Assembly: GCA_951406725.2 (NCBI GenBank)
Contig: OX597819.1
Coordinates: 32,054,001-32,118,000, forward strand
DNA length: 64,000 nucleotides
Source: Octopus vulgaris
Taxonomy: Eukaryota
Direction: 5' to 3'
The notes under the pieces are model-generated. The model was given only the letters and a program-made list of their open reading frames with translations. It was not told the DNA's origin and ran no database searches. Position numbers and translations under genes: made by a program. Below, piece by piece: positions 7,460 to 62,545 of the stretch (within the stretch, counting starts at the first letter, position 1; every line of letters starts with the position of its first letter).

Positions 7460-7660
7460 TTCTACTCTAGGCACAAGGCCCTAAATTTTGGGGGAGGGGG
7501 CCGGTCGATTATATCGAACCCAGTACGCAACTGGTACTTAATTTATCGACCCCGAAAGGATGAAAGGCAAAGTCTACCTCGGCGGAATTTGAACTCAGAA
7601 CGTAAAGACAAACGAAAAATGCCGCCAAACATTTTGCCTGGCGCGGTAACAGGTCTGACA
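7460..7660 (-). mobile_element. SINE family B
   Basis: Reverse complement of the family B core. Confidence 0.7.
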
Positions 7661-7986
7661 GATCTCCGTCCCAGTATTTCATACTATTAGGTAGATTGTA
7701 GCACATTTCATAAAAATGATGAAGCTCAATCTACCTCGAAACTAGAAGCTAATGAAGGTGAAGTCTATCCAGATTTTCAAGTTGTTTCAGCTGTATTTGA
7801 ACTCAGAATGTAGAGAGTCGGAAGAAATGACGTTAAGCATTTTGTCCGACCTGCTAACGATTCTCCCAGTACGCTGCCTTAACGCTTCCTTTAATACGAC
7901 TGTTAGTAAAATGTTCGGTCTGGAAAATTTCGCCCGGCATGCTAACGTTTTTGCCACTCCTACGCTTGATCATGTTTTACTGGTCA

Positions 7987-8399
7987 GGCGTAGGAGTGGC
8001 TGTGTGGTAAGTAGCTTTCTTACGAACCACAAGGTTCCGGGTTCAGTCCCACTACGTAGCACTTTGGGCAAGTGTCTTCTACTATAGCTTCAGGCTTCCC
8101 AAAGCCTTGTGAGTGGATTTGGTAGACGGAGACAGAAAGAAGCCCGTCGAGTATATGTATATATATGTATGTGTGTGTTTGTGTGTCTGTGTTTGCCCCC
8201 CCCTCCTACATCGCTTGATAACCGATGCTGGTGTGTTTATGTCACCGTAACCTAGCGGTTCGACAAAAGAGACCGATAGAATAAGTAGTAGGCTTACAAA
8301 GAATAAGCCCTGGGGTCGATTTGCTCGACTAAAGGTAGTGCTCCAGCATGGCCACAGTCAGATGACTGAAACAAGTAAAAGAATAAAAGTGTAAAAGAG
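7987..8399 (+). mobile_element. SINE family A, full length
   Basis: A-box-like tggctgtgtgg, B-box-like ggttcagtccc, tail gaaacaagtaaaagaataaaag. Confidence 0.85.
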
Positions 8400-10196
8400 C
8401 TCACCACCTTTCTGAGCTCAAATATCGCCGAGATCGAGTTCACCTTTCATCCTTTCGGCATCGAAAAAATAAGTACCATGTTTGAAATCAATAATTATTG
8501 ATGCTCCAAAGACGACGTTTTTTTTTTTTTTTTGTTTATGAGAAGAAAACTACAAAATCTTGAACCAACTCTAAGGACTTCTAATGTTTGAAGGAGATTT
8601 TTGTCGTCGTGATAACACAACAGGTGATGAACTCTGGAGACAATGATGGGACGAATTATGTGCTCCGTTCGTCATTGTGCTGGAAATAAGAAAAAGTTAT
8701 TAAGATTAATGATTTAAATTCTGTTGTAACTGGGATTGGTTTAACTCCGTTTTGAGTTTTGATCATTAATCAGCATGACAAACACATTCTATGTAATAAC
8801 TGAAAATATTCATGAAGATGGTTTTAGTCGAAATATCAACAGCCATAGCAAAACGTGTTGGTAAACAGCTATATATTATGGAACCGTCATTTCCCGTTGT
8901 TTATATTGCGTTCCTTTAAAAAAAAAAACCCCAGCTTCAAACCTATTTATAGAACAAATTCATAACACTTAGATGGAAAAATAACACTGCAGATGCTCTT
9001 TGCTCCAGGCAGAAACTGTAGGAACTACTCAGAGCTTTTGGGAGGTCTTCTAAATCCATCGCAATGTTGAAAGCCATTCCGTGTTGACAGCGGATATCTT
9101 AGGTTCACAAACATTTCACCCCTTTGCGTATACACTTTGCTTGAGTTGGGTAGCGAGGACTGAATTAGTCTTCCCTTTCAAAAGGGTGCCACTTGCCATC
9201 TCTTATCAACCACAGCCATCTTGAGCTGGTTTCAGCTGTTGTGCGTATCTCCTGGATGACTTTCAGATTTTCTAGTAATTATGGGTGATCATATCACAAG
9301 AAGCTCGTAGAGAGTTTTGTAGAATATTGGATTTAAAACTCTGCGCTGGAAACTCGTAAGGTGTTTCGTGAGCAAATGTGAAATGATGGTTTCCTAAAAA
9401 AAACAAATTTCAACAACAAAATGAGACACATAAGCGTCCGTGTAATTACTTGAGCTTCTCATTGTTGCAGCCCACAATAAACTCCTAGCTTCTGGATAAC
9501 CTATCAATCTCGTCATTGTAGCAGCCCCACTACATTTCCAGCTTCAGCAAAAATTCTCGATCTTCTAGTGGCAAACCTCAATAAATTGTTAACGCCCACA
9601 TAACCTCTCTTAACTTTTGGTTTTGACAGTCTTCAATGAACTACCAACTCAAATTCTGAAGAACATTTCAACCTCCTTCCTGTGGCAGCCCTCAATGAAC
9701 TCCCTGTTGCTTTTAGAATGGAAGCCATATGTTCTAAGTAAGCATGTCTTCTTATTCTTCTCCCTTTACTCCTGATAGAGAGCCCACAGTTACTCAGATG
9801 AAGCTTATTTTGTGCCAGCTGACTTACTTATTCTATTGTCTTTTCGGCCACCATGTTGTGTTCACCCACACAGGCTTGATTTTTCTCAGATCCTTTCTTC
9901 CGCAGAACGTGATCCAGAAGAAATTTACTTCCTGTGGTTGTCATCTTTCACCTTTTAAAGAAGAACATTAGCCGTGTCCATCTCATCAATCTTATCTATC
10001 TCACTTATTGAAATGGAAACAGACATAAATCTACGTTAGATGTCAGAACAAATAGAAATATGGCATATATAGTGTTACAGGAACAATTAGTTTAATCGAA
10101 GCTGTTGTTGTTATTACTTTTATTATAGTTGTTTAACTCTCGGTCTAAGCAAAATGTAGTCTTTTGACCAGGAATGACCAAACCAACTTACACGTA

Positions 10197-10613
10197 TACT
10201 CTTTTTACTCTCTTTTTACTTGTTTCAGTCATTTGACTGCGGCCATGTTGGAGCGCCGCCTTTAGTCGAGCAAATCGACCCCGGGACTTATTCTTTGTAA
10301 GCCCAGTACTTATTCTATCGGTCTCTTTTGCCGAACCGCTAAGTGACGGGGACGTAAACACACCAGCATCGGTTGTCAAGCAATGCTAGGGGAACAAACA
10401 CAGACACACAAACATATTCACACACACTTATATATATATATACATATATACGACAGGCTTCTTTCAGTTTCCGTCTACCAAATCCACTCACAAGGCATTG
10501 GTCGGCCCGGGGCTATAGCAGAAGACACTTGCCCAAGATGCCACGCAGTGGGACTGAACCCGGAACCATGTGGTTGGTTAGCAAGCTACTTACCAAACAG
10601 CCACTCCTGCGCC
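10197..10613 (-). mobile_element. SINE family A, full length, young
   Basis: Near-identical to 18374-18768 in reverse orientation. Confidence 0.88.
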
Positions 10614-19529: not shown

Positions 19530-19735
19530 TATAGTTAATCCAAACATGAAAACACAAAGAGAAAACACAACAACACGAGGACGTGGAACAAGTATAGTAT
19601 TATTGGACGCACAGGAAAGAAGGAAAGAAGGAGGGTTTAACGTTTCGAGCGGAGCTCTTCATCAGAAACATAGGAAAAGGAAAGATCCGAAGAAGGGAAG
19701 ACGGAGGAAAAAAAATCACCAACCGTCATACGCGG
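19530..19735 (-). mobile_element. PLE terminal-repeat-like fragment containing a minimal hammerhead
   Basis: Homologous to 62358-62545 and related to the 3' end of the PLE at 25200-25645; flanked by (TA)n. Confidence 0.6.
19635..19669 (-). ncRNA. Minimal type I hammerhead ribozyme motif
   Basis: Minus strand GTTT-CTGATGA-A-GAGC-tcc-GCTC-GAAAC-GTT-AAAC: intact core, stems I and II pair, stem III is palindromic ACGT. Confidence 0.7.
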
Positions 19736-19789: not shown

Positions 19790-20520
19790 ATAAATAAATA
19801 AAATATATGCATATATACATACATATATGTACGTACCTACCTCTACATGTATATATACATGCATATATGGGTACAGGACACCAAAAAAACGTCGAACACA
19901 TAAACATAAACACAAAACCAAGGAAATGGACATTTTTTTAAAACAACGAAAAAATAGAGTACAGGACATACAAAGCAAGGAAAATTCCCCTTCTTCAGTC
20001 GCCTTAATTTCATCTACTCCAGGTTTCGAAGGTCAAGGCGATACATGTCTTCAATGAAATTTTCCTTCCCGCGAAAATCAAATTAAATAAAATTTGAGAT
20101 TTTTTTGCGGAGGGGTAAAAATGGTAACAAAAACAGGATAGTAACGACAGTACAAAATATAAACAGTAAAAGACAGGACACGGAGAATAACAGTAACACA
20201 AACAAGAAGGGCTGTTAAGACAAACGAGATAAAAAAATTTTGCGAACGCTATTGTTTGAGACGCGAGAGAGAACAGATTAACGTCTCTACTTGACGGAGT
20301 CCAAGAAAGAAAAGACAGAAATAGCCGTATCATTACGTGACCGCGACGGGAGGGAGGAGGAGGAGTAAGAGAAGGGGAGAGAAAAGAAGAGAGAAAAGAT
20401 GGGGAATGGTGGTAGAGAAAAAGAAAAGAATGAAGAATGAGAGAGAGAGGGAGAGAGAGAGACAGTAAGTGGAAGAAAAGGAAAGCCCAAATAATGAAGG
20501 CTGAGAAAGGGAGAGGATAT
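19790..20520 (-). mobile_element. Putative PLE 3' region (CT-rich tract, structured motif, tail, (TA)n)
   Basis: Same layout as 24550-25660; tail homologous to 35263-35490 and 55512-55690. Confidence 0.5.
19983..20079 (-). ncRNA. Candidate permuted hammerhead-like structured RNA
   Basis: GTA, GAAA and CTGAAGA occur in that order, with complementary pairs GAAGG/CCTTC, ATTTCATT/GATGAAAT and TCGCCTT/AAGGCGA. Confidence 0.45.
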
Positions 20521-23331: not shown

Positions 23332-23395
<64 letters not shown>

Positions 23396-23397
<2 letters not shown>

Positions 23398-24549
23398 AGT
23401 GGCCATGGGAACGCGAATGGGCCCCAACTATGCGAACCTGTTCGTTGGCTATGTTGAGGCCCAAATATTCTCTATTTTTCACTGGTCCCACTCCCGAAAT
23501 ATACGGTCGTTACATTGACGACATTATCGGTGCCACCTCACTCTCCCGTGAACATCTAGATTCCTTCCTCTCTTTCGTTCAATCCTTCCATCCTGCCCTC
23601 CACTTCACCTCCACTATCTCCAACACCTCTGTCTCCTTCCTCGACATTTCGGTCAGCATTCATCACTCCACTCTTACCACCTCCATTCACTACAAACACA
23701 CAGACTCACACTCATACCTAAACTTCTCTTCCTCCCACCCAAAACACACCAAGCTTTCCATCCCCTATTCCCAATTCCTCCGTCTACGTAGGCTCTGTAG
23801 TGACGACCATGACTTTGAGACTCAGTCTCAACGCATGGCTCGCCACTTCATCCTACGTGGATACCCCCTCACCACTATCCACACCGGCCTTGCCAGAGCA
23901 CGTTCCGTAGACCATGCATCTGCTCTCTCCCCCCCCGAACCCACCCTATAGTCTCCCACCTCCCTTTTCCCCTCACTTACCACCCCACGACCCTACCTCT
24001 CCAACGCACCATTCTTCGAGCTTTCCGGCATCTCCAGTCCGACCCGTCCACTTCACACCTCTTCCCTAACCGACCCCTCCCCTCCTTCAAACGAGCCCAT
24101 AACCTACGAGACCTTTTGGTCCACAGCTCCTTCCCTGACCCTACCTCCCAACCTGGCTCGTTCCCCTGCTCCCGCCCACGTTGCCCACTTGCCCTTACCT
24201 CTCCAACACCACCCTCCTCACTGGCACCCATCATCGACCCTATCGCATCATCAACTCCTTCACCTGCACCTCCAGTAATATCATCTATTGCATCTCTTGC
24301 TCTCTCTGCCATTCCCTGTACATCGGACAAACGGGACGCCGCTTGGCTGACCGGTTCGCGGAACACCTCCGTGACATCCGCCTTGCCAACGACACACCGG
24401 TCTCACGCCATTTCCGCTCCACCGGTCACTCCTTGCAACACCTGTCTGTGTTCGGTTTGTCCTTGCACAGAGGCCATCCGGATTCCCGTTTGCGCCGTGA
24501 ACAGGGATTAATCTTCTCTCTTCGCTCTTTTACGCCATTTGGTCTCAAC
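23396..24549 (+). pseudogene. Frameshifted PLE reverse transcriptase plus GIY-YIG endonuclease
   Basis: GVAMGTRMGPNYANLFVG; YGRYIDDI; SFLDISV; HSYLNFSSSHP..SIPYSQFLRLRRLCS; NIIYCISCSLCHSLYIGQTGRRLADRFAEH...GLN. Frameshifts near 23475, 23940 and 24180. Confidence 0.92.
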
Positions 24550-25257
24550 TCTCCCCCCTCCTCATCTAACCTCCCCCCGACTCCTGCTTCTCTTCGGTCC
24601 TTCATCTTTTCACCCCTACTCTCTTTCCCTCATCTTCCCTCCTCTTCTTTCCTCTTTCCTCTTTCTTCTTCCCTCTTCCCCTTCTCTCTTTCTCTCTGCT
24701 CCCTCACTCCCCTTCTCTCCTCCCCTCCTCCTCCTTTCCCCCTCCTCCCCCTCTTCTCCTCTTTCCTTCTAACTCCCTCTCCCCCCCTCACTCATCCTCA
24801 CCCCTCCTTCTTTCCTTCTCCCCCAATTCTCCCCTCCCCCTCATCACACCCTCCCCACTCTCACCTTTCCTCTTCTCCCTCCTCCCTCCTCTTTCCTTCT
24901 CCCCCTCTCTCACCCCTCATCTTTCCCCCCTCTCCCCCTCATCTCCCCCTCCACTCTCCCTCCTCCGCCACTTCCCCCTCATCTCCTCTCTCTACACTAC
25001 ACCATACGACATTACACATCACATCATACATACACACCTCCAGACCTTTCATACGCATTCATACACACACGCACCCTTATGTTGGGGCGAAGTCATTTGA
25101 CGCTGTTATCTCCCCTATTTTCGCTCTTGCGTCTCACGTTTGATCTCTGACTTCTGGCCAGAATCAGATCGCCATGTTGAATCGCTAGCTTCTGCACGCA
25201 TTTTTTTTCTCACATTTTTTTCTCTCCTTGTTTCTCTCCGTGTTTCTTTTCTGTGTA

Positions 25258-25293
25258 TCTTTCTGTTGAAGAGCGTAGGCCCGAAACATAAAA
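25258..25293 (+). ncRNA. Degenerate minimal hammerhead in PLE terminal repeat
   Basis: CTTT-CTGTTGA-A-GAGC-gtag-GCCC-GAAAC-ATA-AAAG; same layout as 19635-19669 with core and stem mutations. Confidence 0.5.
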
Positions 25294-25312
25294 GACTTGT
25301 TTTATTTATATT

Positions 25313-25545
25313 TATTTCTTTACTACCCACAAGGGGCTAAACACAGTGGGGACAAACAAGGACAGACAAACAGATTAAGCCGATTACATCGACCCCAGTG
25401 CGTAACTGGTACTTAATTTATCGACCCCGAAAGGATGAAAGGCAAAGTCGACCTCGGCGGAATTTGAACTCAGAACGTAGCGACAGACCGAAATATGGCT
25501 ACACATTTCGCCCGGCGTGCTAACGTTTCTGCCAGCTCGCCGCCT
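25313..25545 (-). mobile_element. SINE family B, full length, inserted in the PLE terminus
   Basis: 13-bp TSD ttttatttatatt at 25300-25312 and 25548-25560. Confidence 0.9.
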
Positions 25546-25827
25546 TATTTTATTTATATTCCTGAGCGCCATACTAATACAATTATTTGTTTGTACTCCA
25601 CCTGCCTTCGTCTTTTGTTTATTTTCATAAAGCTTCCCGTTTTATATACATATATATATATATATATATACATATATATATGTACGATGAGCTTCTTTCA
25701 GTTTCTGTCTACAAAATCCACTCACAAGACTTTGGTCGGCCTGAGGCCATAGTAGAAGACACTTGCTCAAGGAACCATGTGGTTGGGAAGCAAACTTCTT
25801 AACACACAGCCACACTTGAGCTTATAA

Positions 25828-35262: not shown

Positions 35263-35498
35263 CCTTTCGATACGTAGAGTAGATGAAACCATGGCGACTG
35301 AAGAAGGGGTTTTTTCCTTGTGTTATTTGTCCTGTACTCTATTTTTTTGTTGTTTAAGAAAAATGTCCGATTCCTTGTGTTTGTGTCTATGTTTTCGTTT
35401 CTCATTGTGTTCGACGTTTGTTTGGTGTCCTGTACTCATATATGCGTGTATATATACATGTAGAGGTAGGTAGTACATATATGCATATGTTTTATTTA

Positions 35499-39379: not shown

Positions 39380-39786
<407 letters not shown>

Positions 39787-39836: not shown

Positions 39837-40102
39837 ATAGAATGGTTGTATACTGTCAATCTAACAAGAACGTGACAGTAGGGGGTACACCACCGTTGTA
39901 TAGCCCTAGGAGGCATCGAACGCCTCCTTATAGCTTCGACACATTTTTTTCCCTGTGTCCTTATATACATATATATATGTATATAAGGACACAGGGAAAA
40001 AAATGTGTCGAAGCGATCAGGAGGCGTTCGATACCTCCTAGGGCTATACAACGGTGGTGTACCCCCTACTGTCACGTTCTTGTTAGATTGACAGTATACA
40101 AC

Positions 40103-40301: not shown

Positions 40302-42083
40302 CGGTAATCCCTCGCCGTATCCTGGTTCACCTATCATGCCCTCAGTACATCGCGTATTATTCTGGCTATTGTATGTAAATTTATATCGCGGACTTCTCAG
40401 TATATCGCAGATATTCTGTTGCCGATAGGTATTTGTATTCTTTTAGATTTTAATTATTTCTGTAGTAAAATAAGCATTTTCGCGCCTAAAAATCAATAAA
40501 TTGATAAATAAAAATGCAGTACAGTACTGCAATGTATAACACATTAATTAAAAAATATTAAAAGAAAATACGTAGTGTACCGTAGATTAGTAAACAAAGA
40601 ATCGCATATACTGTATGGAAAATGAATCTCGGGGGGCAAGTGTGTTGTGTTGCTTGGCATGTATAGTAAAATAAATAATATCAGGTTGAGTAAAAAGTAA
40701 GCAACGTTTTGAAACATGAAATTCATCACAATATATTTCAACAATGCGGATATTATATTTATCAAAATAAGTACCATTACAATCAGCACATTTTTGCCAA
40801 CGAGTTACAAGTTTATTTATTCCGGTAATATAAAAATCTTGAGTTCTGGAGCTTGATGGACTCTTTGAACGCACTTTCAGCATCGGTTTTATTTTTGAAG
40901 TCCTTATCTTGCAGGAAAACCTCGAAGTGCTTGGAAAAGTGCTAGTCGGTAGGAGAAAGGTCTGGGAAATAAACGGGGTATGGAAGAACTTCATAGCCAA
41001 GTTTCCTCAACCTCTGGAGCATTATTAGTGAAACGTGTTGTCGAGCATTGTTAGGAAGAATGATTGGAATTCTTCTGTTGACCAGTTTTGGGCGGAAGGG
41101 GCAAAAGCTTTTCGTTCATTTTGGTAATTCTATAGCAATATGTTTCTGCAGTAATGGTTTTCTCGGATTTTAAGAAGTTGTAGTGGATGAGTCCAGCAGT
41201 ACATTACCAAACAGTCACCATAACCTTCTTTTTGAAGAGCTTGGGTTTAGGGAAGGTTTTCGGTACTTCAATTTGGTCCAAGCACTGCGAGGAACGCTTT
41301 TTATTATTGTACAGAATCTACTTTTTGTCGCGAGTTACAATACAATCGAGAAATGGATCGGTCTGGTTACGGAGAAAGAGTGACAAGCAAATTTCATATC
41401 TGCGCATTTTCGGATTTTCATTCAAATCGTGTGGTACCCATTTGTTGAGCTTTTTTGATTTTCTGATGGTATGCAAATGGTTGCAGGCGGTTTTTTTTTT
41501 TGGCTAACTTGAAGTTCTTTTGCCAGTTCTCGGGTGGTTTTACGTAGATCTTTTTTAATGACGATCTGTAATTGACGGTCATCGATGACAGATGGGCATC
41601 CACTATGCTCACGATCTTCAAGGCTCAGGTCTCCACTGCGAAATCGTTTAAACCATTTTCGAGCTGACCACTCACTGGTCATTTCCTCACCAAACGTTTC
41701 GTTGATGTCACGAGCAGTTTAAGCTGCTTTACGTCCTTTTTTGATGTTGAATAGCAAAATTGCTCGAATATCGCTCTTTGACAGTTCCATTTCAGATGAT
41801 TTATAACAACGGTGAAAAAAAATATCCTTGTTAAATTATTGATGCCATTGGGCAAGTCTATGTCTGCATTATCAGACAATTGCAAAAAAGAAATGTTTTA
41901 AAAAATTCAAAACTCTGCAAAAATCCGCTACAAATTCATCATGGTTTAAAACGTTGCTTACTTTTTACTCAACCTGATACAAATTATAAAAATAATAATA
42001 AATATACTGTTCAGTACTGTTTCTACTTCACCTGTCGCGCGGGGTTTTGGAACGTAGTATCTTCGATAGTTGAGAGATTACTG
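40302..42083. mobile_element. Old pogo/Tigger-like non-autonomous element hosting a mariner
   Basis: TA|cggtaatccctcgccgtatc ... gatagttgagagattactg|TA inverted ends. Confidence 0.55.
40681..41977 (-). mobile_element. Full-length (~1.3 kb) defective mariner transposon
   Basis: TIRs tcaggttgagtaaaaagtaagcaacgtttt, TA TSD. Broken transposase MELSKSDIRAILLF...WFKRFRSGDLSLEDREHSG...GINKLVTRWQKC at ~41790-40757. Confidence 0.92.
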
Positions 42084-53948: not shown

Positions 53949-54001
53949 TATCACTGACGAAGAGAGGGCTCTTAGTAGCTAACTCTGAAATCGGTCCGAT
54001 A
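53949..54001 (+). ncRNA. Type I hammerhead-like motif between 80-bp inverted repeats
   Basis: TATCA-CTGACGA-AGAG...CTCT-GAAA-TCG-GTC-CGATA. Confidence 0.55.
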
Positions 54002-58764: not shown

Positions 58765-59410
58765 AATATAAAATGGGACAAGAACGCAAAACATCCAGAC
58801 AGTTAGGTGATACAAAAAAGGGACAACAAAACATCCAGATACATGATACAAAGAAAGCAAGGACAGGTCATTCGAAGTTTTCTTTCCCCAGTGGAGTTCC
58901 AGATTATCTTTGCAATTTCGGCTGGTTATACTGGAGATTGTTCCAATCTGGCCAGCCCCAAGGGAAAACTAAGGTAAGAGCATTAGATTCCTTGGAAGAA
59001 AGCAGAGAATGTATACGAAAACAAGGATGAAAAAAAAAAACCGAGAAAGTTACACAAATAGAAATGACAGGACATAACAACAAGTGTCTTTCGACTAAGG
59101 ACAAATTGAATTAAGCTCGCATGTGTGGAAATAAAAGCTTACGGCAGGGTTACAAGATTTCACAGGCACATGGAGGAATATAGATGTTCCACGAACGACA
59201 CCCGAACCAAGGAAAGATCAGACTTAGCCGAACACCGGTCATGTGGGGAGAGAAGATAGAGACGTAGAGGCAGAGGGAAAGAAGAATTAAGGAGGGGCGA
59301 AAAAAAATGACAAGGACAAAGTGAAAGTAAAAGAGGAGGGAAAGTGAGCAAGAAGTGAAGGCAGGGAAATGTGAGAGAGGGGGAACGAAAGAACGAAGAA
59401 TAGAATGAAC
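58765..59410 (-). mobile_element. Putative PLE 3' region (CT-rich tract, structured motif, duplicated tail) between (TA)n tracts
   Basis: Layout parallels 19790-20520 without clear primary-sequence identity. Confidence 0.45.
58876..58970 (-). ncRNA. Second candidate permuted hammerhead-like RNA
   Basis: ATC, GAAA and CTGGGGA in the same order; pairs GGCTGG/CCAGCC, CCAGATT/AATCTGG, CAAT/ATTG, AGTTTTC/GAAAACT. Confidence 0.4.
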
Positions 59411-59524
<114 letters not shown>

Positions 59525-62361: not shown

Positions 62362-62545
62362 TAATCCAAACAAGAAAACAAAAAGACAACAACGCGAGGA
62401 TGTGGAACAATTAAAGTATTATTGGGCGCTCAGGAAAAAAGGGGGGAAGAAGGAGGGTATGACGTTTTGAGCGGAGCTCTTCGTCGGAAACATAGGAGAA
62501 AGAAAGATCCCGAGGTGGGAGGACAGAGGGAAAAAAATGCAAGTG
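62358..62545 (-). mobile_element. PLE terminal-repeat-like fragment with mutated hammerhead
   Basis: Homologue of 19530-19735; minus gtttCCGACGAaGAGCtccGCTCaaaacGTCatac; follows (TA)n. Confidence 0.6.

What the first reader, a model, noticed from the sequence alone, without database searches (positions are those of the whole stretch)
58876..58970. Sequence-dissimilar second family with the same permuted hammerhead architecture
Seen on the minus strand: AGTTTTC-ccttgg-GGCTGG-CCAGATT-ggaa-CAAT-C|TCCAGT-ataa-CCAGCC-GAA-ATTG-caaagat-AATCTGG-a-ACTCCA-CTGGGGA-aa-GAAAACT. Segment order and lengths match 19983-20079 while every helix has a different sequence; four helices pair fully and NUH is AUC. 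Weak points: stem I has two C-C mismatches and the core reads CTGGGGA, so this copy is probably dead. It shares the context of CT-rich tract, duplicated tail and (TA)n. This apparent covariation is the main support for the motif.
Basis: partly seen in the sequence, partly recalled or inferred. Interest (0 to 1): 0.78.

Follow-up and report, generated by a model that had tools for sequence, protein, structure and literature searches.

The report
Split-core hammerhead in Penelope-like retroelement tails
This is a decayed copy of a high-copy animal repeat whose majority sequence has every catalytic part of a self-cutting hammerhead RNA in a rearranged order with two extra helices inserted into the core; the same layout sits in published Naiad jumping genes thought to lack hammerheads, so it is likely their overlooked ribozyme, though cutting is untested.

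Summary
In four DNA runs (three species labels) the family majority reads CTGAGGA at the core and TCGAGT/ACTCGA in stem I. All 6 majority differences listed inside the motif repair a pair or the core. This copy is probably dead.

One correction: the closing helix is likely not the one named. The core runs straight into a helix X, and a hairpin Z abuts the upstream stem II strand. The motif therefore spans 59001-58879 and puts a predicted four-way junction between A9 and G10.1. The 20-kb family has the same seven helices.

Read by eye, 7 of 30 published Naiad Penelope-like consensus 3' ends (four phyla) show this split form, and 7 more (two phyla) show a complete type-CSG hammerhead, although the source paper calls Naiads free of canonical hammerheads. 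The closest known RNAs are the non-circular SGC/CSG hammerheads of Eckert 2023, which assume an uninterrupted core-to-stem-II link and were not found in animal genomes.

Untested: cleavage, and whether this family is itself a Naiad, since no ORF is attached.

The parts
58770..59413 (-). 5'-truncated repeat copy (family A), about 640 nt, between (TA)n/(CA)n runs; read as the 3' end of a Penelope-like element
   Evidence: Sequence; 7,656-10,199 contigs laid per run on 58775-59200; same layout as the GIY-YIG-bearing element at 23375-25620
59243..59410 (-). CT-rich tract
   Evidence: Sequence
58996..59001 (-). Helix X, 5' strand (pairs with the 6 nt directly after the core)
   Evidence: 6/6 pairs; X plus adjacent Z found in 269 of 100000 shuffles of the upstream 80 nt; weak duplex, and a register slipped onto the core is favoured in nested folding
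58958..58995 (-). Hairpin Z, ending directly before the stem II 5' strand
   Evidence: Outer helix 7/8 in this copy, 8/8 with majority letter at 58964; inner pair repaired by majority letter at 58974; pair probability 0.96
58952..58957 (-). Stem II 5' strand (positions 10.1-10.6), displaced upstream of the cleavage block
   Evidence: 6/6 with 58925-58920; no variant at 15% or more listed
58944..58951 (-). Helix Y 5' strand (the stem I-stem II interaction helix of SGC/CSG hammerheads)
   Evidence: 8/8 with 58906-58899
58930..58941 (-). Block S: stem III strand, NUH = AUC with predicted cut 3' of 58936, stem I strand
   Evidence: Stem III 4/5 to 5/5 and stem I 4/6 to 6/6 with majority letters; H position varies C to A in 30% of one run, staying non-G
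58912..58925 (-). Block G: stem II 3' strand, GAAA, stem III strand
   Evidence: Sequence
58899..58906 (-). Helix Y 3' strand
58885..58897 (-). First half of block C: stem I strand and core (CTGGGGA here, CTGAGGA in the majority)
58879..58884 (-). Helix X 3' strand, directly after A9 where stem II normally begins
   Evidence: no variant at 15% or more listed there
58770..58878 (-). T-rich 3' tail with a roughly 40-nt internal duplication, running into (TA)n
19986..20116 (-). Family B copy 1: same seven helices with unrelated sequence and an intact CTGAAGA core
   Evidence: X 5/6, Z 8/11 plus 6/6, II 5/5, Y 8/8, III 4/5, I 7/7; X plus Z in 8278 of 100000 shuffles at the lenient setting used
35263..35445 (+). 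Family B copy 2, 5'-truncated inside block G; same core; its post-core hexamer pairs 6/6 with the X strand of copy 1

Best explanation
The locus is a decayed copy of a high-copy repeat, likely the 3' end of a Penelope-like retroelement of the Naiad type, whose family-majority RNA is predicted to fold into a self-cleaving hammerhead of non-circularly permuted order with a split core block. Shown: the strand order is X - Z hairpin - II(5') - Y - III/NUH/I - II(3')/GAAA/III - Y' - I/CUGANGA - X', and every helix and the core are intact in the majority letters. Inferred: helices X and Z would stack on each other and, with stem II and the A9-G12 end of the core, form a four-way junction that replaces the usual covalent A9-to-G10.1 link; the RNA would cut 3' of C58936 only after the core is transcribed, likely as a monomer because stem III is a real 5-bp helix; the two products would stay held by X, II, Y and III, so the cut would act as a nick. 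The likely role is processing of tandem retroelement transcripts, the role proposed for type I hammerheads at the same position in other Penelope-like clades. This particular copy is predicted inactive.
For:: majority letters restore core and stem I exactly as predicted beforehand, in 4 of 4 runs; all 6 listed majority differences within 58879-59001 are repairs, while only 11 of 369 possible substitutions would be (three of the six pairs were added to the model after seeing the data). The NUH position varies only to another permitted base; family B repeats all seven helices with other sequence., read by eye: split form in 7 of 30 Naiad 3' ends and complete CSG in 7 of 30. SGC and CSG hammerheads with the same Y helix cleave in vitro; an unpaired nucleotide 5' of stem II is tolerated in natural hammerheads; a type I minimal hammerhead holds the same position in a neighbouring GIY-YIG-bearing element.
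Against: No cleavage data for any split form. Eckert 2023 states that known alignments have no insertion above one or two nucleotides between the core and its adjacent stems. Helix X in family A is weak (-2.2 kcal/mol, pair probability 0.10) and nested folding slips it onto the last core bases; folding z is only -2.15 and cannot model the pseudoknots. Within family A, minor variants at 58930, 58945 and 58893 break pairs with no partner change listed, so covariation is between families, not within; 9 rows of the variant table were hidden. No ORF is attached, and four short motifs of families A and B were absent from the Craig supplement text, so Naiad membership is by analogy. Sixteen of 30 Naiad ends showed neither form. 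Hammerhead cleavage was not needed for insertion in vitro by a Poseidon element.
Confidence: 0.76

Rival explanations
1. The fold is real and conserved but no longer catalytic: a hammerhead-derived scaffold that the element's reverse transcriptase or endonuclease recognises.
For: A helix directly after A9 has no precedent in the papers read; cleavage was dispensable for insertion in vitro in another clade; many Naiads carry other motifs or none at this place.
Against: CUGANGA, GAAA and NUH are kept in families whose helices share no sequence, which is hard to explain without selection on catalysis.
Confidence: 0.13
2. It is catalytic only after a rearrangement (dimer, splicing or circularisation) or a register switch in X; the monomer as drawn is an off state.
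For: Minimal Penelope hammerheads are proposed to act as dimers, and one is completed by splicing; nested folding of family A pairs X with the end of the core.
Against: No dimer puts the stem II strand after the core, since the sequence after the core is the same in the majority; no GT donor follows the core; in other families X is 5-8 bp and in register directly after A9.
Confidence: 0.08
3. Chance pairing in a repeat tail, over-read as a ribozyme.
For: No Rfam family matches; the descriptor was post hoc and gave 17 relaxed hits in 671 shuffles; this copy has a stronger helix that sequesters the supposed core.
Against: Three letters predicted in advance were all met; the competing helix is broken in the majority; the layout recurs in family B and in 7 published consensi.
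Confidence: 0.03

Closest known systems
Type-SGC and type-CSG non-circularly permuted hammerhead ribozymes (Eckert et al. 2023, PMC10085705)
   Same: Same cyclic order of blocks S, G, C; short linker from the stem I strand to the stem II strand (4 nt here, typically 3); a helix joining the far sides of stems I and II; full core.
   Different: Block C is split: the stem II 5' strand lies upstream and two helices (X, Z) stand between A9 and G10.1. Eckert's RNAs came from metatranscriptomes and metagenomes, apart from one bacterial GCS candidate; this one is in a high-copy animal repeat.
Naiad Penelope-like elements, including those flagged HHR_core or HHR_half_core (Craig et al. 2021, PMC8557442)
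   Same: (TA)n insertion; motif 100-200 nt from the 3' end; the same seven-helix layout read by eye in the records taken as Naiad_Obim, Ovul, Amil, Plae, Bfor (short stem I), 3_Chem and 2_Movir.
   Different: The paper reports no canonical hammerhead in Naiads and does not describe the fold in the passages read. Families A and B do not match the Octopus Naiad consensus ends in sequence and carry no ORF here.
Minimal type I hammerheads of Penelope-like pseudo-LTRs (Cervera and De la Pena 2014, PMC4209133)
   Same: Same position in the element; examples at 19665 and about 25265 in this window; one unpaired base tolerated 5' of stem II.
   Different: Those are circular-order type I motifs with almost no stem III, proposed to work as dimers; this one has a 5-bp stem III and pseudoknotted order.

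Membership tests
Hammerhead ribozyme | CUGANGA core directly after a stem I strand | tested here: met
   Met in the family majority (98-100%) and in family B; not met in this copy (CTGGGGA)
Hammerhead ribozyme | GAAA between stems II and III; NUH between stems III and I | tested here: met
   H varies only C to A
Hammerhead ribozyme | Stems I, II and III fully paired | tested here: met
   6/6, 6/6, 5/5 with majority letters; stem I 4/6 in this copy
Hammerhead ribozyme | Site-specific self-cleavage after NUH | not testable with these tools
   Runs laid were DNA contigs only
Type-SGC hammerhead (Eckert 2023) | Order S, G, C with short I-to-II linker and an interaction helix | tested here: met
Type-SGC hammerhead (Eckert 2023) | Block C uninterrupted: core followed within two nucleotides by the stem II 5' strand | tested here: not met
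   The sequence after the core pairs upstream as X; the stem II strand lies about 65 nt upstream. Not filed as SGC.
Naiad Penelope-like element | ORF with N-terminal GIY-YIG endonuclease, CxC linker and reverse transcriptase | tested here: inconclusive
   The copy is 5'-truncated with no ORF attached; no genome held
Naiad Penelope-like element | Insertion into (TA)n with 5' truncation | tested here: met
   shared with Hydra-clade elements, so not diagnostic
Naiad Penelope-like element | Sequence similarity to a published Naiad consensus | tested here: inconclusive
   Four short motifs had 0 hits in the supplement text; ends seen look unrelated by eye; no alignment run
Minimal type I hammerhead of Penelope-like elements | Core, stem II hairpin and GAAA in circular order | tested here: not met
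   GAAA lies upstream of the core
Non-LTR retrozyme | Tandem repeat units each with a type I hammerhead | tested here: not met
   Single dispersed copy here, not type I

The most novel reading that the evidence does not exclude
Non-circularly permuted hammerheads are the overlooked ribozymes of many Naiad retroelements in at least six animal phyla, and the split-core form is a seventh natural hammerhead topology in which a four-way helical junction replaces the covalent link between the catalytic core and stem II, and which cleaves as a monomer.
Probability: 0.68. Interest if true: 0.88.

Novelty: new variant of a known kind. Interest (0 to 1): 0.8.

Why it matters
It would overturn two statements in print: that block C of the hammerhead cannot be interrupted, which limits the ribozyme to six permutations (PMC10085705), and that Naiads proliferate without hammerheads (PMC8557442). 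It would give the rare CSG/SGC permutations a home in animal genomes at high copy number, make the role of ribozymes in Penelope-like transposition testable across a clade that swaps ribozyme types at one position, and offer a natural site in the hammerhead core where helices can be inserted, which is useful for RNA engineering.

Tried and rejected
Rfam: whole-window scan gave only sub-threshold microsatellite artefacts among the 150 of 303 rows shown; the focused scan gave one chance hit at E = 8. No own genome is held. The metagenome pattern scan returned 18 loci, all chance matches with no similarity beyond the pattern. No RNA holder was listed for the stretch; four DNA runs of 24 listed were laid, so nothing bears on expression. 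Earlier-findings look-ups by sequence, place and a long word list were blank. The helix between the stem I strand and the core was rejected as an accident of decay. Reading family B as plain SGC with a downstream stem II strand was rejected: it gives 4 pairs with two wobbles against 5 Watson-Crick pairs upstream, and leaves Y, Z and X unexplained. A scan for intact CSG, SGC or GCS forms in the window found none, only one probable chance type I pattern at 53954. No covariance model was built: the window holds only two full motifs and the fold is pseudoknotted. The published Naiad sequences could not be brought into the computing tools, so their pairings are by eye and have no shuffle control.

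Full report
Observation. Stem II pairs 6/6, the helix I call Y 8/8, stem III 4 bp, stem I 4/6 with two C-C mismatches; NUH is AUC, and the core reads CTGGGGA. The comparator at 20 kb has the same order. A descriptor written after seeing both hit only those two places, against 17 relaxed and 0 strict hits in 671 block-shuffled windows. My first doubt was an 8-bp helix in this copy between the stem I strand and the supposed core, the strongest helix in the region.

The family majority. No genome is held, so I laid four DNA runs, of 24 listed and under three species labels, on 58775-59200 at 80% likeness. Each gave 7,656-10,199 contigs, so this is a high-copy family; summed contig depth is not a copy number. 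Three more majority differences lie inside the motif (58941, 58964, 58974; 93-100%). All 6 listed majority differences in 58879-59001 are repairs, where 11 of 369 possible substitutions would be; three of those pairs entered the model after I saw the data. The competing helix falls from -10.6 to -4.3 kcal/mol and stem I rises from +0.2 to -6.4. At the predicted cut site the only listed variant is C to A in 30% of one run, still a permitted NUH. Against this: minor variants at 58930 (5-27%), 58945 (0-34%) and 58893 (5-37%) break pairs with no partner change listed, nine rows were hidden, and contigs cannot be phased. Within-family covariation is therefore not shown.

Revised anatomy. The six bases directly after the core pair 6/6 with 59001-58996 (helix X). 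X runs directly into hairpin Z (58995-58958), which ends directly before the stem II 5' strand. X plus an adjacent Z arose in 269 of 100000 shuffles for this locus and 8278 of 100000 for family B at a more lenient setting. Family B has the same seven helices, and its second copy at 35263 supplies the base that completes X. The order is X - Z - II - Y - S block - G block - Y' - I - core - X'. A caution: X is weak in family A, and nested folding, which cannot model the pseudoknots, slips it onto the last core bases (pair probability 0.10; z = -2.15).

The host element. The copy is about 640 nt: CT-rich tract, about 240 nt, the motif, a T-rich tail with a 40-nt duplication, flanked by (TA)n. A neighbouring element at 23375-25620 has reverse-transcriptase-like and GIY-YIG frames (Pfam E = 0.001, below the curated cut-off; the RT frame had no Pfam hit) followed by the same layout, with a decayed minimal type I hammerhead in the motif's place. 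A related minimal hammerhead is intact at 19665. That the window is cephalopod is my recalled impression of its repeats and was not tested.

Related sequences in print. Craig et al. 2021 (PMC8557442; passages, supplement parts 1-2 and supplement passages) report that Naiads lack canonical hammerheads but flag eight families with half a core whose second half lies on either side. I read by eye the last 420-600 characters of 30 of the 54 Naiad consensi, identifying each by its place before a named record in the metadata order. Seven show the split form with X and Z: Obim and Ovul (near-identical to each other, X imperfect), Amil, Plae, 3_Chem, 2_Movir, and Bfor (short stem I), covering Mollusca, Cnidaria, Ctenophora and Acanthocephala. 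In Amil, Plae and 3_Chem, X is 8, 5 and 8 bp directly after the core, Z is 6, 8 and 8 bp, and stems I, II, III and Y pair fully. Seven show a complete type-CSG hammerhead: Parc, 1_Nbra, 2_Nbra, 3_Nbra, Hcon, Hpol (nematodes) and Smim (spider). Five share another motif (CGi, Olur, Pmar, 1_Chem, 2_Chem), one looks twister-like by recalled consensus (1_Movir), and ten showed nothing clear in the stretch seen. These readings have no computed control. Families A and B do not match the Octopus Naiad ends in sequence, so their being Naiads is an analogy that I put at about 0.65.

Mechanism. Shown: the catalytic nucleotides and all helices are intact in the majority letters and recur with unrelated sequence. 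From established work: Eckert et al. 2023 (PMC10085705; parts 1-6 of 8 read, supplement term search, figures not seen) showed that SGC and CSG hammerheads with the same interaction helix cleave at 0.004-0.19 per minute. Cervera and De la Pena 2014 (PMC4209133; part 1 of 4) describe an unpaired base tolerated 5' of stem II. Inferred: X stacks on Z and stem II stacks on the core, a four-way junction that stands in for the A9-to-G10.1 bond; the cut falls 3' of C58936, about 165 nt from the element's end; a 5-bp stem III should allow monomer activity; the products stay paired through X, II, Y and III. The role is likely processing of tandem precursor transcripts, as hypothesised for other Penelope-like hammerheads. 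In a Poseidon element, however, cleavage was not needed for insertion in vitro (PMC11167929, passages).

Comparison and novelty. It works like an SGC/CSG hammerhead but fails the SGC definition, which assumes an uninterrupted block C. Eckert et al. found no such RNA in genomes of known organisms apart from one bacterial GCS candidate. I found no description of the split form, or of permuted hammerheads in Naiads, in nine searches, in passages of the 2011 survey of hammerhead variants (PMC3088659), or in the 2026 retrozyme preprint (10.64898/2026.07.22.740005; part 1 of 5 and passages; its supplements are closed). The library omits most subscription journals, including a recalled 2017 paper on Penelope-associated hammerhead variants that I did not see. 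Rfam has no match. Earlier notes of this scan mention rearranged hammerheads and twister motifs in Penelope-like tails of other genomes; they are unchecked leads, not independent support.

Verdict. A real, decayed member of a conserved RNA motif: a new variant of the non-circularly permuted hammerhead, probably catalytic in its intact form (0.76). Interest 0.8.

Noticed in passing
window:19630-19670 (-), related copy near 62490 (-): Intact minimal type I hammerhead (core, one extra A, 4-bp stem II, GAAA) about 100 nt before a (TA)n run; the copy near 62490 is decayed.
   Followed up: partly
window:23375-25620 (+): 5'-truncated Penelope-like element with RT-like frame, C-terminal GIY-YIG after a Cys-rich linker (Neptune-like by recalled features), CT-rich tract and a decayed minimal hammerhead near 25265, interrupted by another repeat.
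   Followed up: partly
window:35263-35445 (+): Second family B copy, cut inside block G directly after a SINE-like repeat.
   Followed up: yes
Craig 2021 File S5: records taken as Naiad_CGi, Olur, Pmar, 1_Chem, 2_Chem, 1_Movir: Five share a different conserved motif at the ribozyme position and 1_Movir looks twister-like, so Naiads seem to swap ribozyme classes at one site.
   Followed up: no
Craig 2021 File S5: nematode and spider Naiads: Complete type-CSG hammerheads by eye in seven records; Eckert 2023 knew only two CSG sequences, both from metagenome DNA, which might be of such origin.
   Followed up: partly
window:58770-58878, 19870-19980: Tails of families A and B and of several published Naiads carry repeated TGTCC words, a possible recognition signal.
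   Followed up: no
window:55941-56247, 39879-40067, 39426-39614: Long inverted repeats around microsatellite runs; they cause sub-threshold Rfam microRNA hits.
   Followed up: no
window:48498-48992 (-), 40587-41006 (-): Frames resembling mariner-type transposase remnants (recalled resemblance, not searched).
   Followed up: no
window:11285-12282: Tandem array of a 21-nt unit that is open in several frames.
   Followed up: no
window:53954 (+): Loose type I hammerhead-like pattern, probably chance.
   Followed up: no
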